From: Loktanella sp.
Lineage (GTDB): Bacteria > Pseudomonadota > Alphaproteobacteria > Rhodobacterales > Rhodobacteraceae
Length of the DNA stretch: 64,000 nt
Direction: 5' to 3'
Assembly (NCBI GenBank): GCA_020201155.1
Contig: JAIVHI010000167.1
Location: 5,688-69,687, forward strand
A program made the translations under genes and the position numbers. A model generated the notes under the pieces. It was not told the DNA's origin and made no database searches. It saw only the letters and a program-made list of their open reading frames with translations. Shown here in pieces: positions 51,717-64,000 of the stretch. The stretch's first letter is position 1. Each line of letters starts with the position of its first letter.

Positions 51717-53006
51717 ATGTTGCAAGCTGGCACTACGGCAGTTCTGGCGGCAAGTCTCTGGCTTTTGTGGCGTCAGCTTCGTCCGATGCGCGGCGACTTA
51801 CTCACGCTTGTAGCCTTCGGGCTTATCTGGAGCCGGTTCGCGCTTGCAGCGCTTGGTCCGTCCGCCGTTCAGACGCAGTTGGCGGGCCAGTCGCTGATTG
51901 CGCTCGGAACGCTTATCACGGTCAGCTTCGTGGCCGTCGTCATCCCGCTCAGCCTATACCGTGCCGATCAGGCCGCGCCGATCTATGGCATCGCGTCGCT
52001 GGGAGCAGCCGGCACTATCCTGTCGGGGTCGGTCGGAGCTCTACCGAGCTATGTCACGCTCTGGGTCCTGTTCGCGTCGCTTGCGCTGCTGCTCGACCGG
52101 GCTTACACGCTGCACGGGCCAGCGATGGTGCTGCGCGCGCTACTTGCCGTATTCGCGCTGCCGCTCGGGATGCAAGTGGTCTCGTTTGGCGCAGGCCTGC
52201 CCAAGGTCGGGCCGGACGGTTCCCTGAGCTATATAGGCGGCTATGCCCATGAGGCGGTTTTTGCAATCGTGGCGCTCGGGGCGCTGTGGACGGCAACAAT
52301 TTCGTCTTGGCCGAACCGGCGGCTTGCCTGGCTCGCTGTAGCGGTGTGTCTCGCCGCGCTTGTACTCGCGAATTACCGGACTATGCTGATCGCCGCGCTT
52401 CCACTCATCGCTGCTTTCGCGATTTTCGACGGAGTGGGCCAAGGCGGCCGGATTTTGCCCCGTGTTCTAGCAATCTGCGCGGTCGGCTTGATCTTGCTGC
52501 CCGCAGCAATGCCGCCTGCGCTGATCGAGCGCTTTGCCGATCTGGGGACGCTGGCCAGCGACTGGGAGCAGCTCCTGAAGCCGCCCGAAACCTTTACTGC
52601 GGCGGAAAAGGATGTGCTATCCGCGCGGGTCTATATTTGGGCGCGTTACGCTGCGGCGGTGGCGCAGGCAGATCTTCCGCAACTGTTACTGGGTCACGGA
52701 GCCGAGGCGCTGGCGCCTGGTATGGGGACGCATCCGCACAACGAATACTTGCGGGTGGCCTATCAGCACGGGATCCTCGGCGTCGTCGGGCTGTTCGGCT
52801 TGCTGATCGCCCTGACCGTGGTGTCGGCGCGGGCGAAGCCGCGCAGGGCGGGGGTCCTGACAGCGTCGGGATTTGCGGCGTTCCTAATCGCGGCCACGGG
52901 CACCTCACTTTTCGACCGGCCTGAGGGGATGATCGTGTTGGCTATCCTGACCGCCACTGCGTGGAACCTTAGCGTCGGGCGTCAGCCAGTCAGCGCCGCT
53001 GCCTGA
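51717..53006 (+). CDS. O-antigen ligase/polymerase-like (Wzy-type) membrane protein
   Basis: 429-aa polytopic protein. The periplasmic loop ..GTHPHNEYLRVAYQHGILG.. is typical of the Wzy_C/O-antigen ligase family. Confidence 0.75.
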   Translation: MLQAGTTAVLAASLWLLWRQLRPMRGDLLTLVAFGLIWSRFALAALGPSAVQTQLAGQSLIALGTLITVSFVAVVIPLSLYRADQAAPIYGIASLGAAGTILSGSVGALPSYVTLWVLFASLALLLDRAYTLHGPAMVLRALLAVFALPLGMQVVSFGAGLPKVGPDGSLSYIGGYAHEAVFAIVALGALWTATISSWPNRRLAWLAVAVCLAALVLANYRTMLIAALPLIAAFAIFDGVGQGGRILPRVLAICAVGLILLPAAMPPALIERFADLGTLASDWEQLLKPPETFTAAEKDVLSARVYIWARYAAAVAQADLPQLLLGHGAEALAPGMGTHPHNEYLRVAYQHGILGVVGLFGLLIALTVVSARAKPRRAGVLTASGFAAFLIAATGTSLFDRPEGMIVLAILTATAWNLSVGRQPVSAAA

Positions 53007-53823
53007 TTTTGGACGTGACCTCGCTCAGCATCGCGCGCAACCCGGCGTGGCGCAGGGTCGCGGCGATGAATCGCACCTTACCACGCCGCCTTGGCAGGTA
53101 GGCGAGTAGCAGGCGCGCCAAGCGCCTACGGTAGGCATTTTCCCCGAGCCAGGCGCGGTGCTTGTGAAGCGCTGCGGCCTGTTCGAGCAGATCCTCGGGG
53201 CTCAGTTTCAGCGTCGCGTTTGTGATCCTGCCGTGCCCTTTGCGCCGGGTATAGAGCGGCTCGGACACAATCGCGACGCGCCCGCGTTGTACGAGGCGGA
53301 CGAAGAGGTCCCAATCCTGTGCGCGGGGCAAAGTTGGGTCGAACCGCACTCCGGCCACCACGTCCCGCCGGATCAGCAGACCTGAGGTGCCGCAGGGCGT
53401 GCCGTGGCGCAGCCAGTCCGCGTCCACTTCGGAGACGGCCTGCGGTGTGCGGCGGGCCGTGCTGCCGAGCGTCCGGCAGAGGCAGGCAGCGTAGTCGCCC
53501 TTTGCCATTGCGGCGAGTTGGGTTTCGGTCTTGTGGGGCAACCAGACGTCGTCGTCGTCGAGAAAGCCAACCACATTGCCCCGGGCGAGGTCGATCCCCC
53601 GGTTGCGCGCTACGTTCGCGCCGGACCTCTGTGGCAAACGCTCGAGGCGGACACGGTCGGCGAAAATGGCGAGGACTGGGGCGGGATCATTGGTCGATGC
53701 GTCGTCGATGACAATAACCTCGAGCATCTCCACCGTCTGGGACAGCGCGCTGCGCACTGCATCGACAAGCAATTCCGAGCGGTTGCAGGTGGGAATGATG
53801 ACGCTGACGCGGGGCGCAGTCAT
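52990..53823 (-). CDS. family 2 glycosyltransferase
   Basis: 277 aa (VSVIIPTCNRSELL.. VIVIDDAS.. FLDDDD..). Confidence 0.85.
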   Translation of the reverse strand: MTAPRVSVIIPTCNRSELLVDAVRSALSQTVEMLEVIVIDDASTNDPAPVLAIFADRVRLERLPQRSGANVARNRGIDLARGNVVGFLDDDDVWLPHKTETQLAAMAKGDYAACLCRTLGSTARRTPQAVSEVDADWLRHGTPCGTSGLLIRRDVVAGVRFDPTLPRAQDWDLFVRLVQRGRVAIVSEPLYTRRKGHGRITNATLKLSPEDLLEQAAALHKHRAWLGENAYRRRLARLLLAYLPRRRGKVRFIAATLRHAGLRAMLSEVTSKIRQRR

Positions 53824-54043: not shown

Positions 54044-55201
54044 ATGCGACATGTTGCGATCATTGGTCTTCGCGGTATCCCTGACGTTATGGGGGGGATC
54101 GAGACCCATTGCGCCGAGTTACTGCCGCGCATGGCCAAGAAATCGGAGGATCTGAAGCTCACGGTCCTCGCCCGACGCCGTTATGCGACCGTCGCGGATC
54201 CCGTGCCTGGAGTAAAGCAGATCGCCCTATACGCGCCAAGCGGCAGGGGGACAGAGGCCTTGGTTCATTCCCATTGGTCGGTGCTATATGCGCGTCTCTT
54301 TCTCAAGGCGGATGCGGTGCATATTCATGGTATCGGACCCGGGCTTTCGGTGCCGCTTGCGCGGTTGCTGGGCATGGGGGTGCTTTTTACCCATCATGGC
54401 GAGGATTTTGCGCGCGCGAAATGGAATTGGCTGGCACGGTTTGTTTTGCGGGTGGGGGAATTCCTGGCACTTCGCTTTGCGCAATGCATCATCACCGTTT
54501 CGGCCGGCACCGCCACACGGCTCAAAAAGCGCGCGCCTGCGCGTGCCAACCGGATCATTCATGTTCCCAACGGAGTCTCCGCCCCGGCAACCGGTGGGGC
54601 TGCCGAAGTCGTTATGGAGCGCCACCACCTCGAACCCGGACGCTTCGTGATCCATGTCGGCCGGATCGAACCGGAAAAAGGGCAGGATATGCTGATCGAG
54701 GCTTACCGCGCCGCAGGGCTTGCACTGGCAAAGTCTCCGGTGAAACTGCTGCTCGTGGGTGCAGCGGACCACGAGAGCGCTTATTCGCGCAAGATCGCGA
54801 CGATGAAGGGAGACGGCGTCGAACTGGCAGGCCGCCTCGACCGCGACACAGTTTTCGCGCTGAATGCGCAGGCGGCGCTGTTCGTGCTACCATCTCTGCA
54901 CGAGGGACTGTCCATTGCGGCTCTCGAGGCTTTGAAGGCGGACGCACCGGTGCTGCTGAGCGACATCGAGCCGAACCGGAATATCGGCCTCGAGGATCGC
55001 CACTACCTGGCGCCGGATTCGGTCGAAGCTTGGGCCGAGGGGCTCCGCGGTGATCTGTCGCGGCACGCGGTACGCGAAGGGTTTGACGCGTCAGCTTACG
55101 ATTGGGACGTCATCGCGGACCGCACGCTGGAGGCACTTGATGAGGTGACACAGAATTCCGGCTGTATCTCCAAAAACCCAAGGGCGGCGGGTGATGCCTA
55201 A
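54044..55201 (+). CDS. family 4 glycosyltransferase
   Basis: 385 aa. GT-B/GT4 C-terminal signature ..VGRIEPEKGQDML.. ..PSLHEGLSIAALEAL... Confidence 0.85.
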   Translation: MRHVAIIGLRGIPDVMGGIETHCAELLPRMAKKSEDLKLTVLARRRYATVADPVPGVKQIALYAPSGRGTEALVHSHWSVLYARLFLKADAVHIHGIGPGLSVPLARLLGMGVLFTHHGEDFARAKWNWLARFVLRVGEFLALRFAQCIITVSAGTATRLKKRAPARANRIIHVPNGVSAPATGGAAEVVMERHHLEPGRFVIHVGRIEPEKGQDMLIEAYRAAGLALAKSPVKLLLVGAADHESAYSRKIATMKGDGVELAGRLDRDTVFALNAQAALFVLPSLHEGLSIAALEALKADAPVLLSDIEPNRNIGLEDRHYLAPDSVEAWAEGLRGDLSRHAVREGFDASAYDWDVIADRTLEALDEVTQNSGCISKNPRAAGDA

Positions 55202-56095
55202 GGCTCGCAGGCGGCGAATCCTGTTGCTGATCAATTCGCTCGAAGGCGGCGGGGCAGAAAACGTCATGGTGCGGCTCGCTTCGGGCCTTTCGGAAACTGT
55301 GCCGGGTGCAGATATTCGTCTCGTTCTGCTCGACGATTTGCCTGCGGCTTACCCGGTGCCCGCAGACAGGGCGTGGCTGATGAGCTGCGCGTTGGCTATG
55401 GCGTCCCCGCGGGACGACTCCGGGTCATCCACAATCCAGTTGAAATCGGCGATCTTCAGGCGTCGGGTGCCGAGACCCCCGCGATCGCGCTACCTGACCG
55501 CTTTTTTGTCAGCGTTGGGCGTCTGGTGAAGAATAAGGGCGGAGACGTTCTGATGCGAGCGTTTGCAGCGCATGCCGAACCTCGGCGCCATCTCGTGATG
55601 CTTGGAGAAGGATCGGAGCGCGGTCGCCTCACCGCACTGGCGGAGGAGATCGGTATTGGCGATCGGGTACACCTGCCGGGACATCTTGAAAATCCTCATG
55701 CAGTGGTGGCGCGCGCCGATGGCTACATTTCCGCCTCGCGCAGCGAAGGGTTTCCCAACGCGATGATTGAGGCCATGGCGCTCGGGCGGCCCGTCATCGC
55801 GACCGACTGCCGCTCCGGTCCGCGTGAGATCCTAGCGCCGCAGGACGGCAAACCCGAGGCGGGGCTTCTTGTGCCTGTAAACGACATCGCGGCGCTAACG
55901 GCGGCCATGGACCTGTTCGACGATGAGGGCAGTCGGGCTGATCTGTCGCGCCGCGCGGCCCGTCGCGTGGAAGTTTTCCGGTCCGCTTGCGTGGTGGCGG
56001 ATTATGCTGAGATACTTGGGTGCGGGTCGTCCCGAGCAGCAAGGATGTCCGCCAAATGGTCCGTGTCGAGTGCAGGAGGGCCTGATGCCGGATAG
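55191..56095 (+). pseudogene. family 4 glycosyltransferase with internal deletion and frameshift
   Basis: N-terminal fragment (MMPKARRRRILLLINSLEGGGAENVMVRLA..DIRLVLLDD..) in one frame. The C-terminal half (..ADELRVGYGVPAGRLRVIHNPV..VGRLVKNKG..SRSEGFPNAMIEAMALGRPVIATD..) is in another frame. About 100+ residues of the N-domain are missing. Confidence 0.7.
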
Positions 56096-56984
56096 AAGGA
56101 GACTTGCAACCGCTGAGGTCGGCGATCTCGTCCGGTTGGGCGAAATCGACGCTCTGGTGCTCTGCGCGTTACGCGGCAAAGAAGTCAGCCGGCTAGCGCT
56201 TATGGTCGAGGCGCGGGACGCCCTGCCTGTTCGGAAACTTCTCCGTGCCGTGCAGGGAGTAGAGGCCACGGTCTACACGACAAACGGCTCCAAGAGTGGG
56301 TCTTTCCGACTGGACGAGGCGGAGTTCAGTGCGATCAGCCTCGCTTTTATGCCGATGGATCTTGCAGAGACGCTGCTGGCGCGAGCCCGGAGCGCAATTG
56401 GCCTGCCCAGAGAGGATCGGGTCCGGCTTGCGGCCTATGTGAGCGCCTATTTCCGCGCGCCGTCGCGGTTGGCGGGCGGCGCGGAGAAGGATCCGGCCGC
56501 AGACACCCATCGGAGCGAGCTCGACCGCGATCTTCTGACTGCCGGGTGGCGCCCACCGCAGGACATGCTCGAACGTCTGGCCCTTGCCGACCCCTGGATC
56601 CGCAAGTCTTTGCTACCAACCAAAGGACCGGGGCTCCCGCCGGGCCTGACGGCCTTTTTCGTGCGCGAACGGGCTGTGGCGGAGTGCTTTCTGCCCCGGA
56701 TCCGCGAGGTCATCGCAGAAATTGGATTTGAGATATTGACCGAAGTTGAGCTGGTCGGGGACACAGCGGAGGAGATGCGCAAGTCGACCCGGGGCGGGAA
56801 CTGGGGGTCTGGGCCGTTTTCGGTCAGCGGCGGGCCGCCGCGGCACATACTCTTATTCGTCGGACCATTCGAGCGAGGCCTACCGTGTCATCGAAACGCT
56901 GCTGTCCGCAGCGGAGTTCGACGCGCTGAAGGCCGGTGTTGCGGCGCGCCGTTTGGCCCTGCGCGAAACGACGGGTCAGGCTGA
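56085..56984 (+). CDS. degenerate nucleotidyltransferase (NTase)-like protein fused to a small alpha/beta domain (paralog of 58603-59346 + 58376-58606)
   Basis: ATG 56085 with AGGAGG upstream. ..RLALMVEARD.. aligns to ..DVDILVSDD.. of the minus-strand paralog, and ..GWRPPQDMLERL.. aligns to ..GWRPRPAHLEAL... It then continues ..FFVRERAVAECFLPRIREVIAEIGFEIL... Confidence 0.5.
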   Translation: MPDRRRLATAEVGDLVRLGEIDALVLCALRGKEVSRLALMVEARDALPVRKLLRAVQGVEATVYTTNGSKSGSFRLDEAEFSAISLAFMPMDLAETLLARARSAIGLPREDRVRLAAYVSAYFRAPSRLAGGAEKDPAADTHRSELDRDLLTAGWRPPQDMLERLALADPWIRKSLLPTKGPGLPPGLTAFFVRERAVAECFLPRIREVIAEIGFEILTEVELVGDTAEEMRKSTRGGNWGSGPFSVSGGPPRHILLFVGPFERGLPCHRNAAVRSGVRRAEGRCCGAPFGPARNDGSG

Positions 56985-57597
56985 GCCCGAGGAAGGACGA
57001 AACGTGACTGCGGTCACTCTGCGCCGGGGCGGCGTCGTGCGACGCGTGTTTCGGCCACATCTTGTTAGTCATGTCCCCGCAGTGGTGCAGGCGCAGGAGC
57101 TGCTACGTCCTGATTGGCCCGAGGTCTGCGAGTGTCTGAAGACGGGCGAGGGCATCGTGGATTTCACCGACCCGGGGCCGGAATTCACGCCTGCTGGAAC
57201 ACTTGGCGGCCCCCTCCCCTTTGCGCTGGCCCTGCGCCTGCGCGCGCTCTTGGTGGAGGCCGCGAAGGCGGGGATCGTGCTGGATCACTGGGACCCGGCG
57301 CAAAACGTGCTCGTCAACCACAAGCGAACCGAGCTGCGGCTGCTGGGCTTCGACCGGCCTCGGTGCCTCGATGGGCCGCAACTCCTGTCCGCCACACTGG
57401 AGCACAACGTAACGCGCGCCGAACTGGCCCGGCTGACCGGAATTTCCACTTCCGTGTTCTTGGGTGGTTCGGCACCATTGATGCGGTTGTCGCGCGAGAT
57501 CTTTCGGCCTGCCGCAGCGCTCTTCTGGCGCGGCGAGACCGGGATCTCACGGGCTGTCTCCGCCCTGCTGCACATCCACCTGCGGCGGCGTGGCTAG
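56746..57597 (+). CDS. degenerate Kdo/WaaP-type kinase-like protein (start unresolved; possibly frameshifted continuation of 56085-56984)
   Basis: ..GGVVRRVFRPH.. ..IVLDHWDPAQNVLVNHKRTELRLLGFD.. parallels the minus-strand kinase-like ORF. A GTG at 57004 with GAGGAAGGA upstream is the nearest plausible independent start. Confidence 0.4.
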   Translation: MSWSGTQRRRCASRPGAGTGGLGRFRSAAGRRGTYSYSSDHSSEAYRVIETLLSAAEFDALKAGVAARRLALRETTGQAEPEEGRNVTAVTLRRGGVVRRVFRPHLVSHVPAVVQAQELLRPDWPEVCECLKTGEGIVDFTDPGPEFTPAGTLGGPLPFALALRLRALLVEAAKAGIVLDHWDPAQNVLVNHKRTELRLLGFDRPRCLDGPQLLSATLEHNVTRAELARLTGISTSVFLGGSAPLMRLSREIFRPAAALFWRGETGISRAVSALLHIHLRRRG

Positions 57598-58337
57598 CGC
57601 TCGACAGCCGGGCGCCAGGCCACGCGTGCCAGACTGCCGGACCGTTGACGGGTATGCCTGCGTCGGCGCAGGGCGGCGCCCGCCGCAAAGCCAATAATCC
57701 AGAACGGATGAAGCGTTGCTCGCTTGAGATGCTGCAGCCAAGGCGGGTCATGAAGAAAACTGTGTTTTGACAGGCCAGTGTAGGGGCGCCATTTCGCCGG
57801 GTATGGGTCTTCGTTCATCGCGTTGAGAAGCGGGCGCGCGACGGGAGCCTCCTCGGGCACGCCGGACAGAAAGTAGCTCTGCTCGGGTGCCACGGGGGCG
57901 GCGCGCCGGGTGGCAAACTCGAAGTCGATGGCCCGCATGCGCCCAGTCCGTGCATCGATCAGGATATTGTCGCGTGGGGTGAGATCGATCGCATCGAACC
58001 CGTGAGCGCAGCACAGTCGGACGAACGCCGCAAGCTCGTGTACACGGGCGAGCGGCAGCGGCAGCGGCAAGCGGAACCCCAAGATCCGACGTGTGCGCAG
58101 GGCATTCGGAATGTCCTCGAAGAGAAGGGAACGTTCGTCACGGGCGAGAAGGCGTGGGGGTATCTCACTCAGTCTTCCCATCACCTCGAAGAATGCCAGT
58201 TCGCGAGTCAGCGCGTCACGGGCGGTGTGTCGGAAGGTCTTGAGCACAGCCGTGCCGTCGCCGTGGGCCACGCGCTCGACCTTGGCGCGATACTTGAAAC
58301 GGCTGAGATCAGCGAGAACGGGACGGTCGGTGTGCAT
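57594..58337 (-). CDS. protein-kinase-like fold enzyme (Kdo/WaaP/RIO-like), C-terminal TM anchor
   Basis: 247 aa. ..GTAVLKTF.. (beta3 Lys), ..RELAFFE.., ..FDAIDLTPRDNILIDARTGRMRAIDFEFA.. (catalytic-loop-like and DFx-like), then the hydrophobic ..LHPFWIIGFAAGAAL... Confidence 0.55.
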   Translation of the reverse strand: MHTDRPVLADLSRFKYRAKVERVAHGDGTAVLKTFRHTARDALTRELAFFEVMGRLSEIPPRLLARDERSLLFEDIPNALRTRRILGFRLPLPLPLARVHELAAFVRLCCAHGFDAIDLTPRDNILIDARTGRMRAIDFEFATRRAAPVAPEQSYFLSGVPEEAPVARPLLNAMNEDPYPAKWRPYTGLSKHSFLHDPPWLQHLKRATLHPFWIIGFAAGAALRRRRHTRQRSGSLARVAWRPAVER

Positions 58338-58375
58338 AGCGGCGCGGCGGGCGGCGATGGCGGTGTCGAGTTCGT

Positions 58376-58606
58376 TCAGGTCTTCGGGAGATAGAAGACG
58401 CCGGGCGGCATGCTCGGCTTCGGCTTCGCATTGAACGCTATGATCGCCTGTCCGCTCGAAAAGCAGGACTCTTCAAGGAGCTCCGCGAGGGGGGCGGCCG
58501 CGCAGGTTCGGAAGACTTCGAATCCCCGCGCCTCGAGCGCAGTCACCACACGAGGGCTGAGCGCTTCTGCCTCGAGGGCGAGAGCGACGACGCAGAGGCC
58601 CCTCAT
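58376..58606 (-). CDS. small ORF homologous to the middle domain of 56085-56984 (possibly a fragment)
   Basis: 76 aa. MRGLCVVALALEAEALSPRVVTALEARGFEVF.. aligns with ..GLTAFFVRERAVAECFLPRIREVIAEIGFEIL... ATGA overlap with the upstream gene. Confidence 0.4.
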   Translation of the reverse strand: MRGLCVVALALEAEALSPRVVTALEARGFEVFRTCAAAPLAELLEESCFSSGQAIIAFNAKPKPSMPPGVFYLPKT

Positions 58607-59346
58607 CTGTGCTCTGCCAGCCAGCGGTTGAAGGGCTTCAGCGCCTCCAGGTGCGCAGGCCTGGGGCGCCAGCCTTGGTCCGCAAGAAAATGGTCAAGGC
58701 TGTCGAGGGTGATGTCTTTGGGTAACTCGAGACTCGCGGCAGGGGCGAGCCGCCGCAGTACAGCTGGGTAATCGCGGGAGCCCTTCTGGCGCGGCGGCGT
58801 GGCGGCATCGGGTGGAAGCCCCGACTGATAGCCTTTCAGGTAGACAGCGTGATAGGCGAGTCCTAGGACATGCAGGCGCGGGGCGGGCACGGACCACGGG
58901 CCATGGCCGCGACGGCGGGTCTCGATAATCTCGGCGCCAATGGCCGGAGGAAAGCCGGGCAGGCCGTCCTCTAGGAGATCGGGCCGGAAACCGCCGCCAT
59001 GGGCTCCCGTCACCGAGAAGACGTCGATCTTTTTTCCACGCGGCCATTTTGAAAGCAGATTGCCTACAAAAGCCATGCTGTCGTCGGACACCAGTATGTC
59101 GACGTCATGACCGCGGCCGACGCGGGGCAGATCCTCGAACCAGCGCAGTACGACATGGGGCGTGCCCGCCTCGTGAAGCGCGCGAAAGAAGCCCTCGATT
59201 GCCAGTGCAGGTGGGATGTAGCGGTTGCCCCGCGGGTTGACCTGTCTCTCGGCCCATTGGCGCGTGTCCGGCCCGAGAACGGGCAGTACCGGCTCCAATA
59301 TCAGGCGAAGCGCCTGTCTCCAGCGACGTTTCAGGAGCTGTTTCAT
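58603..59346 (-). CDS. nucleotidyltransferase (NTase)-fold protein (uncharacterised NTase family-like)
   Basis: 247 aa. ..HVVLRWFEDLPRVGRGHDVDILVSDD.. resembles the hG..DhDhLV NTase motif. It starts 5 nt after the flippase stop. Confidence 0.5.
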   Translation of the reverse strand: MKQLLKRRWRQALRLILEPVLPVLGPDTRQWAERQVNPRGNRYIPPALAIEGFFRALHEAGTPHVVLRWFEDLPRVGRGHDVDILVSDDSMAFVGNLLSKWPRGKKIDVFSVTGAHGGGFRPDLLEDGLPGFPPAIGAEIIETRRRGHGPWSVPAPRLHVLGLAYHAVYLKGYQSGLPPDAATPPRQKGSRDYPAVLRRLAPAASLELPKDITLDSLDHFLADQGWRPRPAHLEALKPFNRWLAEHR

Positions 59347-59350
59347 TGGG

Positions 59351-60688
59351 TCACTCCCTTACCGACGGCACGCTTTGGCATGCCCAGAGGTCGGCGAACC
59401 GGCGTGGCCAGGCGATGGCCTTGAGTTGCATAATCGCGGGCTTTCTCAGCGACGGGACAAGTGGTGCGAGCAGGATCGGCGCAAGTGTGTAGGAGATGAC
59501 CGTTGCAATCGCAGCGCCCTCCGCCCCGTAGCGCGGGATGAGCAGGAGGTTCAGGAGTACGTTCGTCACGGCCCCCGTCGCATGGATCATCGCCGAAGCC
59601 CAAAAGATGCCCTCCACGAGCAACCACTTGTGGACGAGGGCGCGCGTAGCGAAAACGATTCCCACCCAAGCGTAGATCTGCAGCACACCCGCTGCGGGTG
59701 AGTATTCCGCGCCGAAGAGCAGCATCACCAGTGGCGCGGACCAGAAGGGCGAGGTCGCCGCAATCAGTGTGCCGAAGGCGGCGAAACTGTCCATGGCGTC
59801 CTGCACGCGAGCGGCGTAGTGGCTGGGCGAGCTCGCGCGCAGCTCCACCATGCGCGGAAAGAGGGCCATAGCGAGGGCGGTAGGCAGGACATACCACGCC
59901 TCCGACAGGCGCGCGGCCACGGCGTAGATACCCGTCGTCTCCTGCCCGACCATGTAGGAGAGCATCAGGATGTCGGACTTGAGGTAGATCACCGCCGAAA
60001 GCGCGCCCAACATCAGCGGGAACCCCTGGACGAGATAGCGCCTGACCCGCGACGCTTCGATCCGCAGGCCGGGCAAACCGCTGGTTCGGCGGCGGTAGGC
60101 CAAGAGTGCGCCGAGACCCGACACCGCACCCTGCGCAGCTTGGGCCAAAATGAAGGCATCGACGCCCATGTTTGCAAAGATCAACAAGATCTTCACGCCG
60201 GCAAAAACTGCCATGACGGCCACGGAGAAGATCACGAAGGGCTTCGGGTCCTGTTCCGCGATGAAATACTCTTGGATCGTGTCGATGGATTTTACCAGCG
60301 CGGCACTGGCGAGGATCGCGCAGAGGACCGCGATATTTTCGTGGGAGATCGGGTAGATCCACGCCACGGCGAAGACAATACAGACGGAGAAGATCGCGCC
60401 GGCGAAGCGGATCGCTGTGACGGTGCCGAGGATTGAGTTGGCCTCTTCCGGGTACATCTTGTATTCGCGTAAAGACAGGTTGCGCATCCCCAGCGTGTTT
60501 AACGGGGCTACTATAGCGACGAGCGAGACGGCATAGCTCAGCACCCCATAACCTTCGGGGCCAAGGTGGCGCGCGACGAAGATGGCTATGAGTAGCCCGT
60601 TGGCGAGCTTCGCGAGCTGTTTGGCAATGAGCCAGCCTCCGGACCGAAGAATCAGTCGACGCGGTGCGGAGAGAAACGACTGGTTCAT
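59351..60688 (-). CDS. polysaccharide flippase (Wzx/MOP family)
   Basis: About 445-aa, 12+ TM protein. ATG 60688 (MNQSFL..) or GTG 60712. Confidence 0.8.
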   Translation of the reverse strand: MNQSFLSAPRRLILRSGGWLIAKQLAKLANGLLIAIFVARHLGPEGYGVLSYAVSLVAIVAPLNTLGMRNLSLREYKMYPEEANSILGTVTAIRFAGAIFSVCIVFAVAWIYPISHENIAVLCAILASAALVKSIDTIQEYFIAEQDPKPFVIFSVAVMAVFAGVKILLIFANMGVDAFILAQAAQGAVSGLGALLAYRRRTSGLPGLRIEASRVRRYLVQGFPLMLGALSAVIYLKSDILMLSYMVGQETTGIYAVAARLSEAWYVLPTALAMALFPRMVELRASSPSHYAARVQDAMDSFAAFGTLIAATSPFWSAPLVMLLFGAEYSPAAGVLQIYAWVGIVFATRALVHKWLLVEGIFWASAMIHATGAVTNVLLNLLLIPRYGAEGAAIATVISYTLAPILLAPLVPSLRKPAIMQLKAIAWPRRFADLWACQSVPSVRE

Positions 60689-60909
60689 GAGGACGTGCTC
60701 GTCAGAGCGCACGAGGGCGCCATTTTACGACGAAGTTCGGGGTTCTCCTGTCTTGGGCGTATGCCCGGCCAGTTCAAGACAGGATTGGTCTTATTGCCAT
60801 TGCCTGAGGACATACGATCGTTTCTCTGGCTTAGTTGGCAGCAGTCCGGCATGGTGCCTCTGATGGTTCGGTGAGACGTGCTGCCGGAAGCAAGTGAAGG
60901 CGGAGGACT

Positions 60910-62028
60910 TTGCGCAAAATTGGGTTCTTCACGCTGACGCCGTCCCCACCCGCACCGCAGGCCAACGCACGCACGCTGGCCGCCTTGCGCAGAGCGCTTC
61001 CGGACAGCGAGATTGAAGTGATCGAGATCATTCCGCGACTGAGGCAAGCGCCAGTCTCCTTCGGAACGGCCGCAGTCGTTGCCACCGTCACTTATGCTCC
61101 GGACCTTCTCTACGGGCGCAAGTCGCTGAAACATGCCGCTATCCGCACACCCTATCTGTTTCGCTGGATTAAGCGGATGGCGGCCCGGGTTGCCCATGAG
61201 CGGGGTTTCGATGCCACCTTCCAGATGCAGTCTCTCTTCGATGCAAGTGTGACCGGCATTCCGCACTACGTCTATACGGATCATACTCATCTTGAGAACC
61301 GTAGATACGGCGCGGCCGACGAGGCTGCACTCTACTCGGCGGCATGGATGGCCTGCGAGCGGGAGATCTATACTAGGGCCGAAACTGTCTTTGTGCGCAG
61401 CAGTAATGTCGCGCGATCTCTGATCGACGAGTATTCTTGCCCACCGGATAGGGTGCTTTGCGTTTACGCGGGCAGCAACGCGCAGGTTCCCGCGGCGCCG
61501 GCGAAAGTGACCGCTCCGGGCCAATGCAAGACCATCCTGTTTGCCGGAATCGACTGGGAGAGAAAGGGCGGACCCGTTCTGCTCGAAGCCTTCGAAAGGG
61601 TTCTTGAGCGCCATCCCGAGGCTCGGCTGAGGATTGTTGGCTGCAACCCAGAGACCAAGCACATCGCCAATTGCGACATCGTGGGGCGGGTGCCGCTGGA
61701 CGAGATGCCGCGTCACTTTGCAGAATCTGGCATTTTCTGCCTTCCGACCCATCGCGAGCCCTTCGGCGTGGTTTTCGTCGAGGCGATGTGGCACGGACTT
61801 CCGGTAGTCGCCACGAGGGTAGGCGCTATTCCCGACATGGTCGTAGAGGAGGTGAACGGCGCTCTCATCACACCAGGCGATGTAACTGCGCTGGCCGATC
61901 GGTTGTGCGCGATCCTCGATAATCCGGCACTGGCGGCACGGTATGGTGCCGCTAGTCGTTTGATCGCAGAGGACCGCTATGATTGGGATCAGGTTGCCCG
62001 TCGGATGGTGGAGAGGTTGGTTCCCTGA
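60910..62028 (+). CDS. family 4 glycosyltransferase
   Basis: 372 aa, TTG start with GGCGGAGGA upstream. ..FAGIDWERKGGPVLLEAF.. ..PTHREPFGVVFVEAMWHGLPVVAT... Confidence 0.8.
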   Translation: MRKIGFFTLTPSPPAPQANARTLAALRRALPDSEIEVIEIIPRLRQAPVSFGTAAVVATVTYAPDLLYGRKSLKHAAIRTPYLFRWIKRMAARVAHERGFDATFQMQSLFDASVTGIPHYVYTDHTHLENRRYGAADEAALYSAAWMACEREIYTRAETVFVRSSNVARSLIDEYSCPPDRVLCVYAGSNAQVPAAPAKVTAPGQCKTILFAGIDWERKGGPVLLEAFERVLERHPEARLRIVGCNPETKHIANCDIVGRVPLDEMPRHFAESGIFCLPTHREPFGVVFVEAMWHGLPVVATRVGAIPDMVVEEVNGALITPGDVTALADRLCAILDNPALAARYGAASRLIAEDRYDWDQVARRMVERLVP

Positions 62029-62171
62029 GGCGTGCTTTGATGCGGTTTGACTGCCGGATTCTTTACAGTTGTCATTTTTCTGACGTGATGATGCTGCATA
62101 CTGAATATAGGTGATATCTTCTGATCGTCGGTTGTCGCTAAAAAGCGTCTTTGCCCGAAAGGTGACTTCAA

Positions 62172-62363
62172 ATGAAAACAACTTGGTCCATCGCGGCGGG
62201 GCTGGTCTTTGCCATTTGCGGGTCAATCGTCGGATGGATTGCATTCGGGTTCCTTGCGGCGGTCCTGCTCTACGTAATATGCGGTATGCTCGGCGTAATA
62301 GCATGGGTCCTAGTCGCGTTGATTCTGCAGCCCAGTCGCATGTATGTCGCGTTCGGTCAGTAA
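62172..62363 (+). CDS. small hydrophobic protein (2 TM)
   Basis: 63 aa (MKTTWSIAAGLVFAICGSIVGWIAFGFLAAVLLYVICGMLGVIAWVLVALIL..). Weak Shine-Dalgarno. No family recognised. Confidence 0.35.
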   Translation: MKTTWSIAAGLVFAICGSIVGWIAFGFLAAVLLYVICGMLGVIAWVLVALILQPSRMYVAFGQ

Positions 62364-62397
62364 AAACTTGTCTACAAAGCCAAAGCTACCTGAAGTG

Positions 62398-63081
62398 TTA
62401 TCGTCCGGAACCACGAAGAATGCTGACAACAGTCATTGCGATCAGACGAAGGTCGAACGCAAGCGACAGGTTGGACGCATAGAAGTCATCGAAAAACTTA
62501 CGGTCGATAAAGCTGGAAGTGTGTCTTTGGGAGACTTGCCAAGGTCCGGTGAGACCGGGCCGAAGGCCAAAATACAGCATCCCACCGGCCGCCTTGTAGG
62601 CGGGCTCCTGCGCCGTAGTGAAAGGACGCGGACCGACCACGCTCATGTCCCCACGCAGGACATTTATAAATTGTGGAAACTCGTCAAGGCTGGTGCGCCG
62701 CAGGATCCGTCCGATGGTCGTGATGCGGGGATCATCCGAGAGCTTCTGAAACCGAGCCCATTCCGCAGCGGCGCTTGGGTTCTTGGAAAGATGAAGGGTG
62801 AGCCGCTCCTCGGCGTTGGGAACCATAGTGCGGAGCTTCAGCATCGGGAAGCGGCAACCACCGCGCCCAACCCTTTCCTGCACATAAAAGGCTGGGCCGC
62901 CATCAAGTCGGACGAGGAGCGCCAGTAGGCCGACGAGTGGCAAGACGAAGGGCGCCACAAGAAGTACGAACGCGAGATCAAATATCCGTTTTGGCAGGCT
63001 TGTGTAAGCGTGAAGCCGCCGACCGCTTTTGGCGCCCGCCCGTGCAGAGGCCACCCTCTGTGTAAGGTCAGTCGTGTTCAT
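62398..63081 (-). CDS. undecaprenyl-phosphate sugar phosphotransferase (ExoY/WbaP C-terminal type priming enzyme)
   Basis: ..[19 protein letters not shown].. ..[17 protein letters not shown].. ..[21 protein letters not shown].. is the bacterial sugar transferase signature. ATG 63081 preferred over the track start at 63141. Confidence 0.88.
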
Positions 63082-63457
63082 TGTCTTCCCCCATAATCCA
63101 GAGCCGCTCAATGCGCCAAATGCTTGTAAACGATTAAGCAAGGCGACTTATCTTAAAGCAAGCTTTGCACGATTTTGACATTTTGTCGCCCAATTTCGGC
63201 CTATTAAATTCTGGGTGAGATAACTTTCTGAAAACAACCCATGGGAGAGTAAACTGCTTATTTCACAACAATCCGTCGTTATGTTCGGAACTGTTCGTCA
63301 AATGGAGACAATAAAGGTACTGACGACACTGCTTTTGTATTCAAGCCCTTTAGAACTTTCGTTAGGCGACACAATCCGACTAGCCATTTCTAAGTCGCTG
63401 ATTCGCTTGCGCGTCTGCCCTTGGTTCCGATGGGATAGAGAAGTGGTTCGGTTTGTC

Positions 63458-64000
63458 TGAACAGGTTCCGGGCGTTTTCTAAGTGGATTTCTGCCTTGTC
63501 TATGCCGCTACCGCTTCGGGCATCGGCTGGTTGAAGTACGCTTGATCCGGCGTTTTGCCGTCAAGCGATGAATGAGGGCGGCGGCTGTTCTAAAAGGTCA
63601 GATAGCGACCGATCCCTGCGCGGGTTCCCGAGACGCTTGTGTAGGCCCGCAGGTAGATCTCTTCGTATTTGATCGTCCTCCAGAGACGCTCCACGAAAAC
63701 ATTGTCGCGCCAAGCTCCTTTGCCATCCATGCTGATCTTGATCCTACGTGCGGCCAGCACCTTGATAAAGTCGGTCGATGTGAACTGGCTACCCTATCCG
63801 TGTTGAAGATCTCAGGGGCACCATGGCGCGCAAGCGCCTCCTCCACTGCTTCAATGCAAAAATCCGCTTCCAGCGTGATCGATACTCGCCAGGCCAAGAC
63901 ACGGCGGGTAAACCAGTCCGGCACAGCGGCAAGGTAGATGAACCCGCGGGCCATGGGTCTGTAGGTGATGTCCATAGCCCAGACCTGGTTGGGCCGGGTG
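63458..64000 (-). mobile_element. IS3-family element right end with decayed orfB (rve integrase); continues past the window end
   Basis: ..DITYRPMARGFIYLAAVPDWFTRRVLAWRVSITLEADFCIEAVEEALARHGAPEIFNTD then a 1-nt deletion. The other frame reads GSQFTSTDFIKVLAARRIKISMDGKGAWRDNVFVERLWRTIKYEEIYLRAY..RYLTF*NSRRPHSSLDGKTPDQAYF (in-frame TAG). The coding part ends at 63500. The terminus near 63458 (TGAACAGG..) is tentative. Confidence 0.8.

What the first reader, a model, noticed from the sequence alone, without database searches (positions are those of the whole stretch)
56085..59346. Two convergent, paralogous NTase-like + kinase-like modules embedded in the polysaccharide island
The minus-strand set runs 59346 to 57594 and is coupled to the Wzx flippase. 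It encodes three ORFs:
- an NTase-like protein (..RGHDVDILVSDD.., C-terminal ..GWRPRPAHLEAL..);
- a 76-aa ORF (..LCVVALALEAEALSPRVVTALEARGFEVF..);
- a membrane-anchored protein-kinase-like enzyme (..AVLKTF.., ..DAIDLTPRDNILID.., ..AIDFEFA..).

The plus-strand set runs 56085 to 57597 and has the same domain order. Its NTase Asp pair is replaced (..RLALMVEARD..), the middle domain is fused, and the kinase motifs are weakened (..LDHWDPAQNVLV.., ..LLGFD..). That pattern fits an active enzyme set beside a pseudo-enzyme or decaying copy.

I know of no characterised polysaccharide-modification system with this NTase + small domain + Kdo-type kinase architecture. It may add a phospho- or nucleotidyl-linked substituent to the polymer or its lipid carrier.
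Basis: partly seen in the sequence, partly recalled or inferred. Interest (0 to 1): 0.7.

Follow-up and report, generated by a model that had tools for sequence, protein, structure and literature searches.

The report
Split NTase–NDK–kinase polysaccharide module, damaged here
The two convergent gene sets are real, distantly related copies of a widespread but unstudied three-part enzyme (nucleotidyltransferase + nucleoside-diphosphate-kinase-like + protein-kinase-like) found in sugar-polymer gene clusters, but in this genome two of its three genes are broken by deletions.

Summary
The 76-aa ORF and the overlap of the two plus-strand ORFs are not natural gene boundaries. Relatives carry three intact genes next to wzx: A (about 247 aa), B (about 380 aa) and a convergent C (about 560 aa). 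In this window B lacks 124 nt, C lacks 149 nt, and the neighbouring GT4 glycosyltransferase lacks about 280 nt; all three deletions shift the frame.

Fold assignments:
- A has a Pol-beta-type nucleotidyltransferase fold with an invariant Asp triad. The fold match is weak but consistent.
- The C-terminal half of B has a protein-kinase-like fold. It does not match the Pfam Kdo/WaaP family.

Paralogy holds at profile level: A versus C N-terminus E 2.5e-14, and B versus the rest of C E 5e-14.

C is not a decaying copy. A keeps the NTase residues, B the kinase residues, and C the NDK-like His motif. The ancestor is a single-chain three-domain protein: 1216 clusters, and 224 loci in a scan of species-representative genomes, across many phyla, in polysaccharide loci. 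No characterised member was found.

The most likely role is a heteromeric enzyme that decorates the lipid-linked repeat unit. That function is inferred, not shown.

The parts
59351..60712 (-). Wzx-type flippase, intact, immediately upstream of gene A
   Evidence: Pfam Polysacc_synt E 1.8e-21 and Polysacc_synt_3 E 4.7e-18. The same position is occupied by a Wzx gene in L001, L002, L003, L005 and L091.
58603..59346 (-). Gene A (247 aa, intact): a stand-alone Pol-beta-type nucleotidyltransferase-fold protein. It has invariant D81, D83, D88 and D108 and a C-terminal helical part carrying GWRP...L..L...N.W.
   Evidence: It is 100% identical to a Loktanella sp. MAG protein. Family alignments are A1 and A9. 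The AF2 model has pLDDT 92.4, with the DxD on strand 82-86 and D108 on strand 105-111. Foldseek top hits are MenT1, ANT(2'')-Ia, poly(A) polymerase, CCA-adding enzyme, TUTase and Pol beta; the best E is 0.038.
58376..58606 (-). Remnant of the 5' end of gene B. It holds 59 codons of the degenerate NDK-like domain, then 17 out-of-frame codons and a stop.
   Evidence: tblastn of intact B proteins: residues 1-59/60 match 58606-58430 in frame -1.
58429..58430 (-). Junction of a 124-nt frameshifting deletion in gene B. It removes residues 60-99 of the L005 protein.
   Evidence: DNA alignments to L005.
57594..58436 (-). Rest of gene B in frame -3: the linker helix, a protein-kinase-like domain (AVLKTF; DLTPRDN; IDFEFA) and a C-terminal helix. 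The annotated 247-aa ORF starts at an internal conserved Met (ATG at 58337) that has no SD-like motif upstream.
   Evidence: tblastn of intact B residues 100-377. AF2 model of the B homologue P0032 has pLDDT 85.4. Foldseek matches kinases: Pho85 at 1.2e-5, plus RIOK2, Ark1, CK2 and Bud32. The B profile against PDB hits CK2alpha at E 0.005. Upstream sequence read.
56085..56870 (+). 5' part of gene C (frame 3): a degenerate NTase-like domain with the Asp triad lost (..RLALMVEARD..), plus the first half of the NDK-like domain (FFVRERA..GFEIL..RGGNWGSGPFSVSGGPPRH). The ORF then runs on out of frame to 56984.
   Evidence: tblastn of intact C residues 1-264/269. hhalign of the A family against the C N-terminus gives prob 98.3, E 2.5e-14.
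56854..56855 (+). Junction of a 149-nt frameshifting deletion in gene C. It removes about residues 265-308, including D.FP..HP.LDN.R..K..R..FN.LH, which contains the catalytic-His position of the NDK-like domain.
   Evidence: DNA alignments to L005. Invariant columns are listed in A5 and A6.
56854..57597 (+). 3' part of gene C (frame 1): the end of the NDK-like domain (SSDHSSEAY), then a degenerate kinase-like domain (..VRRVFRP.., ..HWDPAQNVLV.., ..LLGFDRP..) and a basic C-terminal tail. It converges on gene B, and the two stop codons overlap by 4 nt.
   Evidence: tblastn of intact C residues 309-546. hhalign of the B family against the C family gives prob 98.2, E 5e-14 over B 23-353 / C 224-553.
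55191..56095 (+). GT4 glycosyltransferase gene adjacent to C, broken by a frameshifting deletion of about 280 nt near 55362-55366. It is about 367 aa in relatives.
   Evidence: blastn to L001, L002 and L003. tblastn places residues 1-56 in frame 3 and residues 151-367 in frame 2. Pfam finds only the C-terminal Glycos_transf_1 half, in ORF 55373-56095.

Best explanation
The region holds a conserved three-gene module, A-B-C, wedged between wzx and two GT4 genes of a Wzx/Wzy exopolysaccharide locus.

Origin (shown). The module descends from a widespread single-chain enzyme with three nucleotide-handling domains in a fixed order: a Pol-beta-type nucleotidyltransferase fold, a nucleoside-diphosphate-kinase-like domain with its phospho-His motif, and a protein-kinase-like domain. 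In this Rhodobacterales lineage the gene was duplicated. One copy was split.

Division of catalytic residues (shown):
- A keeps the NTase Asp triad.
- B has a dead NDK-like domain and a kinase domain with all its catalytic residues.
- C has a dead NTase-like domain, an intact NDK-like domain and a dead kinase-like domain.

Mechanism (inferred):
- The three proteins assemble into one heteromer. The dead domains serve as docking surfaces, recreating one active site of each kind.
- The complex acts at the cytoplasmic membrane face on the undecaprenyl-PP-linked repeat unit before Wzx flips it.
- The kinase domain phosphorylates a sugar hydroxyl.
- The NTase-fold domain transfers a nucleotidyl or phospho-linked group to that site.
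- The NDK-like domain re-charges the nucleotide on site through a phospho-histidine.

State in this window (shown, if the sequence is accurate). B, C and the neighbouring GT4 each carry a frameshifting deletion. C has lost its catalytic-His segment. The module is therefore probably non-functional in this organism.
For: Gene structure and deletions:
- Relatives have intact A (242-247 aa), B (376-385 aa) and C (551-589 aa) in the order Wzx-A-B><C-GT4-GT4.
- The window differs by clean deletions of 124, 149 and about 280 nt.

Domain identities:
- A: AF2 pLDDT 92.4, and nearly all Foldseek top hits are NTases. D81, D83, D88 and D108 are invariant in A1/A9.
- Middle domain: in a profile search of PDB, all 14 hits are NDKs or NDK domains. 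The best E is 0.0022, and N..HGSD aligns with FNPLHSSD.
- B: Foldseek gives 131 hits at E <= 1e-3, and all 50 listed are kinases. CK2alpha aligns across the Lys, HRD-Asp, Asn and DFG-Asp positions.
- The N-terminal part of the B model is beta-alpha-beta-beta-alpha-beta.

Paralogy:
- A vs C N-terminus E 2.5e-14.
- B vs C E 5e-14.

Complementary conservation: invariant columns of A1, A4, A5 and A6.

Single-chain ancestor form:
- The A-domain profile finds 1216 representative proteins at E <= 1e-3. Many are 600-800 aa.
- The consensus of 60 of them shows all three motif sets in one chain.
- Sub-threshold Pfam hits to NTP_transf_5, NDK and Pkinase fall in that order.
- 224 loci were confirmed in a scan of species-representative genomes, spanning many phyla.

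Link to polysaccharide synthesis:
- One relative is fused to Wzx and one to a GT2.
- Among 117 flanking ORFs from 25 loci, GT2, GT1/GT4, epimerases, GDP-mannose dehydratase and Wzx dominate.
- In L010 the order is Wzx, then A+NDK, then a small Pkinase, then an acetyltransferase, Wzy and GTs.
- In L007/L009 the order is a Kdo-family kinase, LicD, then A+NDK.
Against: - No biochemical or genetic data exist for any member, so the substrate and the chemistry are inference only.
- The NTase assignment rests on weak structural scores: best Foldseek E 0.038, TM 0.29-0.45. The window protein has no Pfam hit.
- The closest structural relatives of the kinase domain are protein and RNA kinases (RIO2, CK2, CDK, Ark1, Bud32), not known sugar kinases.
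- Heteromer formation was not tested.
- B has no clear transmembrane segment.
- Pol-beta-fold enzymes are not known to act together with an NDK in glycan modification.
- The deletions could be MAG assembly artefacts. No independent contig carries the broken versions.
Confidence: 0.5

Rival explanations
1. Precursor-activation module. The kinase domain phosphorylates a free sugar or alcohol. The NTase-fold domain converts that phosphate ester plus NTP into an NDP-activated donor. The NDK-like domain regenerates NTP from the NDP released by the glycosyl- or phospho-transferase. Together they would form a self-contained salvage-type pathway feeding one of the cluster's transferases.
For: - The normal job of an NDK is NDP-to-NTP conversion, and the catalytic His motif is conserved.
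- Neighbourhoods contain cytidylyltransferases, TagF-like and LicD-type transferases that use CDP-activated donors.
- From established knowledge (not tested here): protein-kinase-like-fold anomeric sugar kinases exist, such as the APH-family N-acetylhexosamine 1-kinase.
Against: - From established knowledge: known NDP-sugar and CDP-alcohol pyrophosphorylases use a different, Rossmann-like fold, not the Pol-beta fold.
- Fusion of the A domain to a Wzx flippase, and N-terminal TM anchors in many relatives, point to action at the membrane rather than on soluble precursors.
Confidence: 0.2
2. Regulatory module. The kinase-like and NTase-fold domains modify a protein of the export or polymerisation machinery by phosphorylation or nucleotidylylation, with the NDK-like domain acting as a phospho-His donor. 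The module would control EPS output rather than its chemistry.
For: - The closest structural matches of B are protein kinases: Pho85/CDK, CK2, RIOK2, IRAK4 and Lck.
- UniRef labels the O. granulosus B protein 'Protein kinase domain-containing'.
- The locus also encodes a PCP/BY-kinase-type protein.
Against: - The module is embedded among glycosyltransferases and translationally coupled to wzx. No regulator genes are nearby.
- A relative in L007/L009 is paired with a Kdo/WaaP-family (sugar) kinase and with LicD.
- The kinase domain is minimal: the B profile aligns with CK2alpha only from the N-lobe through the DFG-equivalent motif, B positions 138-276.
Confidence: 0.15
3. One reading: a functional minus-strand set (NTase, small protein, kinase) beside a decaying, non-functional plus-strand duplicate.
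For: - In C the NTase Asp triad and the kinase catalytic residues are lost.
- In this window C is frameshifted.
Against: - C is present and full-length in every intact relative examined, across genera: Oceanicola, Histidinibacterium, Shimia and metagenomic relatives.
- C carries 20 invariant columns in its NDK-like domain, including the His motif, which is exactly the domain that is degenerate in B.
- The minus-strand set is itself broken in this window. The '76-aa ORF' is a frameshift product.
Confidence: 0.05
4. The three deletions are artefacts of the metagenome-assembled genome, and the module is intact in the living organism.
For: - The window matches a MAG contig.
- Three clean deletions within 3.1 kb is unusual.
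- No independent assembly carries the broken products.
Against: - The junctions are clean and flanked by 88-92% identity to L005.
- The deleted segments share no detectable DNA similarity with each other (best match 7 nt), and no long repeat was seen at the junctions, so nothing was found that would mislead an assembler.
- The rest of the locus is collinear with relatives, without gaps.
Confidence: 0.3

Closest known systems
Pol-beta-type nucleotidyltransferase superfamily (MenT/AbiEii toxins, ANT(2'')-Ia, Pfam NTP_transf_5 PF14907; LicD-type transferases as a functional analogy)
   Same: The A model has a small alpha/beta core with DxD on one strand and a third Asp on the neighbouring strand. 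The Foldseek top hits are nearly all from this superfamily. Five of 60 wide relatives give weak NTP_transf_5 hits.
   Different: No match is significant: Foldseek E >= 0.038, the window protein has no Pfam hit, and the family profile finds nothing in PDB by sequence. The conserved C-terminal helical part (AYHAVY.KG, GWRP) has no known counterpart. No member of this superfamily is known to be fused to an NDK-like domain and a kinase domain.
Nucleoside diphosphate kinase (Pfam NDK PF00334)
   Same: The secondary-structure order is ferredoxin-like. The N-terminal 'F.vR..A......i......GFeI' matches the start of NDK. 'N-x-x-H-S-S-D' aligns with the catalytic 'N-x-x-H-G-S-D'. All PDB profile hits are NDKs, and 5 of 60 relatives hit Pfam NDK, best E 7e-6.
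   Different: The match is very distant: PDB E 0.002, and hhalign against E. coli Ndk aligns only the N-terminal 32 residues. The domain contains a family-specific RGGNWG.GP...GG.P insert or motif. It is always embedded between two other domains. The copy in B has lost the His and the RGGNW motifs.
Atypical protein-kinase-like kinases (RIO2, Bud32, archaeal Ark1 RNA kinase, CK2; LPS kinases of the Kdo/WaaP family; WbdD as a functional analogy)
   Same: Kinase fold with the beta3 Lys, alphaC Glu, catalytic-loop Asp/Asn and a DFG-like 'DFE'. The domain is small, like RIO, Bud32 and Ark1. It sits in a glycan locus, as KdkA, WaaP and WbdD do (the last point is from established knowledge).
   Different: The window protein has no hit to Pfam Pkinase, Kdo, RIO1 or APH. 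The catalytic loop reads DLTPRDN. It carries an N-terminal pseudo-NDK domain and a long linker helix. Its substrate is unknown.
Glycan phospho-decoration pathways that pair a kinase with an NTase-fold transferase (Lic pathway LicA/LicC/LicD; mammalian POMK with FKTN/FKRP)
   Same: A kinase-fold enzyme and an NTase-fold enzyme cooperate on a glycan. The distant relative P0028 lies next to a LicD gene and a Kdo-family kinase gene.
   Different: The resemblance is of logic only. No sequence relationship to LicA, LicD, POMK or FKTN was tested or found. None of those pathways contains an NDK-like domain.

Membership tests
Pol-beta-type nucleotidyltransferase superfamily | Minimal alpha/beta NTase fold | tested here: inconclusive
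   AF2 model pLDDT 92.4. The Foldseek top 19 hits are all NTases, but the best E is 0.038, probability 0.75, and TM 0.29-0.45.
Pol-beta-type nucleotidyltransferase superfamily | Catalytic carboxylate triad: [DE]x[DE] on one strand plus a third acidic residue on the adjacent strand | tested here: met
   D81, D83 and D108 are invariant in 21 sequences. They lie on strands 82-86 and 105-111 of the model. The same positions are conserved in 60 wide relatives: D59 in at least 90%, and D61 and D86 invariant. The triad is lost in the N-terminal domain of C.
Pol-beta-type nucleotidyltransferase superfamily | hG[GS] motif ahead of the DxD | tested here: inconclusive
   Only a conserved Gly (G79), two residues before D81 in 'RGHD', is present. 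No canonical G[GS]-helix element was seen in the model.
Pfam NTP_transf_5 (PF14907) | Score above the Pfam gathering threshold | tested here: not met
   The window protein has no hit at E <= 1. Five of 60 relatives give sub-threshold hits, best E 2.8e-4.
Nucleoside diphosphate kinase | Catalytic His in the N-x-x-H-G-S-D context | tested here: met
   N121 is conserved in at least 90% of sequences, and H124, S125 and D127 are invariant, in C-family and fused proteins. These align with the NDK motif in PDB hits. The feature is not met in the B family. The segment is physically deleted from the window's copy of C.
Nucleoside diphosphate kinase | Sequence-profile similarity to NDK | tested here: inconclusive
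   All 14 PDB hits at E < 10 are NDKs, best E 0.0022. Pfam NDK hits are below threshold in 5 of 60 relatives, best E 7e-6. hhalign against E. coli Ndk gives probability 4% over the N-terminal 32 residues only.
Nucleoside diphosphate kinase | NDP-to-NTP phosphotransfer activity and oligomeric state | not testable with these tools
   This needs biochemistry.
Protein-kinase-like superfamily | Bilobal kinase fold | tested here: met
   Foldseek of the B model finds 131 PDB hits at E <= 1e-3, probability 1.00 for the 50 listed, all of them kinases.
Protein-kinase-like superfamily | beta3 Lys, catalytic-loop Asp and Asn, and metal-binding Asp of DFG | tested here: met
   K157, D242, N248 and D262 (P0032 numbering) are invariant in 19 B proteins and align with the CK2alpha VAIK, HRD, N and DWG positions. 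The window's mC retains AVLKTF, DLTPRDN and IDFEFA. These residues are not conserved in the C-terminal domain of C.
Lipopolysaccharide kinase (Kdo/WaaP) family, PF06293 | Match to the family profile | tested here: not met
   mC and pB have no hit at E <= 1. A separate PF06293 protein does sit beside the distant relative P0028.
Wzx/Wzy-dependent polysaccharide locus (context) | Flippase, polymerase, initiating transferase and glycosyltransferases in one cluster | tested here: met
   The window contains Wzy_C, GT2, GT4 x3, Polysacc_synt and Bac_transf. The order is syntenic with L001, L002, L003, L005 and L091.

The most novel reading that the evidence does not exclude
An uncharacterised, phylum-spanning family of three-domain enzymes (NTase fold, then NDK-like, then kinase-like) installs a new kind of phosphate- or nucleotide-linked decoration on lipid-linked polysaccharide repeat units. 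It would use on-site NTP regeneration through a phospho-histidine. In roseobacters it has evolved into an obligate A-B-C heteromer by duplication, fission and complementary inactivation of domains.
Probability: 0.25. Interest if true: 0.8.

Novelty: new variant of a known kind. Interest (0 to 1): 0.6.

Why it matters
If the inferred role is right, this family is an unrecognised enzymatic step in bacterial surface-polysaccharide synthesis.
- It occurs in Planctomycetota, Cyanobacteria, Actinomycetota, Bacillota, Gemmatimonadota and Proteobacteria: at least 1216 sequence clusters, and 224 loci in a scan of species-representative genomes.
- Phosphate-linked substituents change the charge, the immunogenicity and the phage-receptor properties of capsules and EPS. 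A dedicated NDK-like domain inside such an enzyme would be a new use of that fold.
- The roseobacter A/B/C arrangement is a clean natural example of subfunctionalisation. Each paralogue keeps a different active site and the dead domains are retained. This makes a heteromer hypothesis directly testable.
- For this particular window the practical message is different. The module, along with a neighbouring glycosyltransferase, looks inactivated. The '76-aa ORF' is therefore a frameshift product, not a gene, and the other three ORFs called in B and C are fragments of broken genes.

Tried and rejected
- Pfam and NCBIfam scans of the five window ORFs gave no usable hit. The only result was a weak BPTD_3102 hit for pB, E 0.003, far below its cut-off.
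- Single-sequence and A-family profile searches of PDB found nothing significant for A. For mC alone the only hit was CDK2 at E 0.79.
- Pairwise BLAST between the window's two sets is marginal, so I moved to family profiles.
The HMM search of PDB was more informative.
- I tested whether the two deleted segments form an inverted repeat that could explain an assembly or recombination artefact. They share no similarity beyond 7-mers.
- I looked for independent contigs carrying the broken 76-aa or 247-aa products. None is on record. The Salipiger mucosus B protein could not be located either.
- The word-index homologue searches suggested tiny families of 30, 21 and 8 proteins. This was misleading: the exhaustive profile search found 1216 representatives.
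- cluster-member look-up of ten wide relatives returned no informative names.
- The PADLOC defence-system library gave no hits, so a defence-system reading was dropped.
- Five literature searches found no description of this architecture. 'NTP_transf_5' occurs in no held paper.

Full report
**What is in the sequence.**
- The minus-strand set follows a Wzx flippase (59351-60712; Polysacc_synt E 1.8e-21) after a 4-nt gap.
- The locus is a Wzx/Wzy polysaccharide cluster. It contains Wzy_C (51717-53006), GT2 (52990-53823), GT4 (54044-55201), a second GT4 (55191-56095), another GT4 (60910-62028) and a Bac_transf initiating transferase (62398-63141).
- None of the five ORFs hits Pfam or NCBIfam in any usable way.
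- Gene A is 100% identical to a hypothetical protein of a Loktanella sp. MAG.

**Gene structure: three genes, two of them broken here.**
- The same locus occurs in Oceanicola granulosus HTCC2516 (L001), Histidinibacterium lentulum (L002), two metagenome contigs (L003, L004), a close metagenomic relative (L005, 88-92% DNA identity) and Shimia sediminis (L091).
- In those loci the order is Wzx, A (242-247 aa), B (376-385 aa), convergent C (551-589 aa), GT4, GT4, GT2.
- Intact B and C proteins each map onto the window in two pieces in different frames.
- DNA alignment to L005 shows clean deletions of 124 nt in B (junction 58430|58429) and 149 nt in C (junction 56855|56854).
- The '76-aa ORF' is therefore 59 genuine codons of B plus 17 out-of-frame codons.
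- The 247-aa 'kinase' ORF starts at an internal conserved Met with no SD-like sequence upstream.
- The two overlapping plus-strand ORFs are one frameshifted gene.
- The GT4 next to C has also lost about 280 nt, with a frameshift near 55362-55366.
- A, Wzx and the other genes are collinear and intact.

**Domain identities.**

A (nucleotidyltransferase fold):
- The AF2 model is confident (pLDDT 92.4).
- Foldseek against PDB gives no hit at E <= 0.001. The top 19 are all Pol-beta-type nucleotidyltransferases, including MenT1 (E 0.038), ANT(2'')-Ia, viral poly(A) polymerases, CCA-adding enzymes, TUTase, Pol beta and TM1012.
- D81 and D83 sit on strand 82-86 and D108 on strand 105-111. All three are invariant.

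Middle domain (NDK-like):
- Distant homologues P0028-P0030 fuse an A domain to a C-terminal domain carrying RGGNWG...GG.P...N..HSSD. The same motifs occur in C.
- A 149-column profile of this domain (A6) was searched against PDB. All 14 hits are nucleoside diphosphate kinases or NDK domains. The best is 5x00_A at E 0.0022, and the NDK domain of TXNDC6 aligns full-length at E 0.007.
- The catalytic N..HGSD aligns with FNPLHSSD.

B (protein-kinase-like fold):
- The AF2 model of P0032 has pLDDT 85.4. It shows an N-terminal beta-alpha-beta-beta-alpha-beta domain, a long helix and then a kinase domain.
- Foldseek gives 131 PDB hits at E <= 1e-3. Every one of the 50 listed is a kinase: Pho85 at 1.2e-5, plus RIOK2, Rio2, Ark1, CK2, Bud32 and IRAK4.
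- The B profile hits CK2alpha (E 0.005) with the beta3 Lys, HRD Asp, Asn and DFG Asp aligned.
- It does not match the Kdo/WaaP Pfam family.
- No 19-residue hydrophobic segment supports a transmembrane anchor.

**Paralogy.**
- Between the window's own proteins BLAST is marginal (E about 0.008 and 0.5).
- With family profiles it is clear. The A family (fused rows removed) against the C N-terminus gives probability 98.3%, E 2.5e-14 over 175 columns.
- The B family against C gives probability 98.2%, E 5e-14, over B 23-353 and C 224-553.
- So C equals an A-like part plus a B-like part in one chain.

**Complementary degeneration, not decay.** The invariant columns tell a consistent story.

| Protein | NTase-like domain | NDK-like domain | Kinase-like domain |
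|---|---|---|---|
| A | Asp triad kept | none | none |
| B | none | RGGNW and His motifs lost | Lys, Asp, Asn, Asp kept |
| C | triad lost (..LALLV..) | 20 invariant columns, including His | catalytic positions not conserved |

- C is full-length in every intact relative examined.
- The pattern fits subfunctionalisation with retained pseudo-domains. I infer, but have not shown, that A, B and C form one complex.

**The ancestral form is widespread.**
- The word-index searches suggested tiny families of 30, 21 and 8 proteins.
- An exhaustive profile search with the A domain found 1216 representatives at E <= 1e-3, of which 428 are at <= 1e-30. Many are 600-800 aa.
- The consensus of 60 of them carries all three motif sets in one chain.
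- Individual members give sub-threshold Pfam hits to NTP_transf_5, NDK and Pkinase in that order. In P0090 the hits fall at 222-246, 402-438 and 639-685.
- A scan of species-representative genomes confirmed 224 loci. They fall in Planctomycetota, Cyanobacteria, Gemmatimonadota, Actinomycetota (Georgenia, Cellulosimicrobium, Janibacter), Bacillota (Planococcus, Lentibacillus), Halomonas, Hyphomicrobiaceae, the Rhodobacterales member Limibaculum, and others.
- One relative is fused to a Wzx flippase (P0068: Polysacc_synt_3 at 44-335, A domain at 497-735) and one to a GT2.
- Several of the 500-820 aa forms in which roughly 140-155 residues precede the A domain have one hydrophobic segment in that N-terminal extension.
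- Among 117 flanking ORFs from 25 diverse loci, the commonest Pfam families are GT2 (22), GT1 (8), NAD-epimerases (6), GDP-mannose dehydratase (5) and Wzx (4). Two ORFs each match TagF-like glycerophosphotransferases and each of two cytidylyltransferase families.
- In L010 the order is Wzx, A+NDK, a 226-aa Pkinase, an acetyltransferase, Wzy and GTs. In L007/L009 it is a Kdo-family kinase, LicD, then A+NDK.
- No PADLOC defence model matches.

**Mechanism.**
- Shown: the three folds, the conserved catalytic residues, the fixed domain order, the paralogy, and the association with polysaccharide loci and flippases.
- Inferred: a membrane-proximal enzyme acts on the lipid-linked repeat unit before flipping. 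The kinase domain phosphorylates a hydroxyl. The NTase-fold domain adds a nucleotidyl or phospho-linked group. The NDK-like domain re-charges the nucleotide through phospho-His.
- Rivals: a soluble precursor-activation pathway (kinase, then NTase, then NDK recycling), and a protein-modifying regulatory module. Neither is excluded. The nearest structural neighbours of the kinase domain are protein and RNA kinases, which favours neither sugar-based model.
- In this window the module is probably dead. C lacks the His segment, B is split, and the GT4 is truncated. The exception would be if the deletions are MAG artefacts. That cannot be checked here, because no independent contig carries the broken products.

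**Unexplained.**
- The deletions in B and C fall at homologous positions of the two NDK-like domains.
- Mapped through the B-versus-C profile alignment, the starts agree within 3 residues and the ends within 1.
- The deleted DNA segments share no similarity, and both deletions shift the frame.
- I have no explanation for this coincidence.

**Novelty.**
- Five literature searches found no description of this architecture.
- One possible lead is WpsI, a kinase-like protein needed in an Actinoplanes Wzx/Wzy cluster (PMC13390465). Its relationship to B was not tested.
- Each domain belongs to a known superfamily and polysaccharide-decorating enzymes are a known kind, so I rate this a new variant of a known kind.
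- It is of above-average interest because of the unprecedented NDK-like insert, the breadth of the family, and the tidy pseudo-domain split.

Noticed in passing
window 55191-56095 (+), junction about 55362-55366: The GT4 glycosyltransferase next to gene C is also broken. About 280 nt (residues ~57-150 of a ~367-aa protein) are missing and the frame shifts. That makes three adjacent genes (GT4, C, B) with deletions, while the rest of the locus is intact.
   Followed up: partly
window 58429/58430 and 56854/56855: The 124-nt and 149-nt deletions in the paralogous genes B and C remove homologous segments of their NDK-like domains. The boundaries agree within 1-3 residues, although the deleted DNA shares no similarity and both deletions shift the frame. 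Chance, selection or artefact cannot be told apart.
   Followed up: partly
window 63598-63975 (-), and 62000-63500: An integrase-core (rve) fragment (E 4e-9) lies at the edge of the polysaccharide locus. GC drops to 0.47-0.50 around 62000-62500 and 63000-63500, against about 0.64 in the locus. This may mark an IS element or an island boundary.
   Followed up: no
window 60685-62304 (-): A 539-aa ORF lies antisense to the GT4 gene at 60910-62028. It is most likely a spurious high-GC shadow ORF, because the plus-strand GT4 has strong Pfam support.
   Followed up: no
P0068 (1182 aa, metagenomic): This is a natural fusion of a Wzx flippase (Polysacc_synt_3 at residues 44-335, about a dozen hydrophobic segments) to the A domain (497-735) and downstream domains. 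It physically links this enzyme family to repeat-unit flipping.
   Followed up: partly
L007/L009 (metagenome contigs), genes upstream of P0028: A two-domain A+NDK protein is preceded by a LicD-family gene, a Kdo/WaaP-family kinase gene and a weak GT2-like gene. This hints at phospho-substituent transfer chemistry.
   Followed up: partly
PMC13390465 (Actinoplanes missouriensis wps-1 cluster): WpsI is a protein with a kinase-like domain at residues 175-329 in a Wzx/Wzy cluster, and it is required for normal sporangium formation.
   Followed up: no
The word-index homologue search returned only 30, 21 and 8 relatives. The exhaustive profile search found 1216. Family size from the indexed search alone would have been badly underestimated.
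   Followed up: yes
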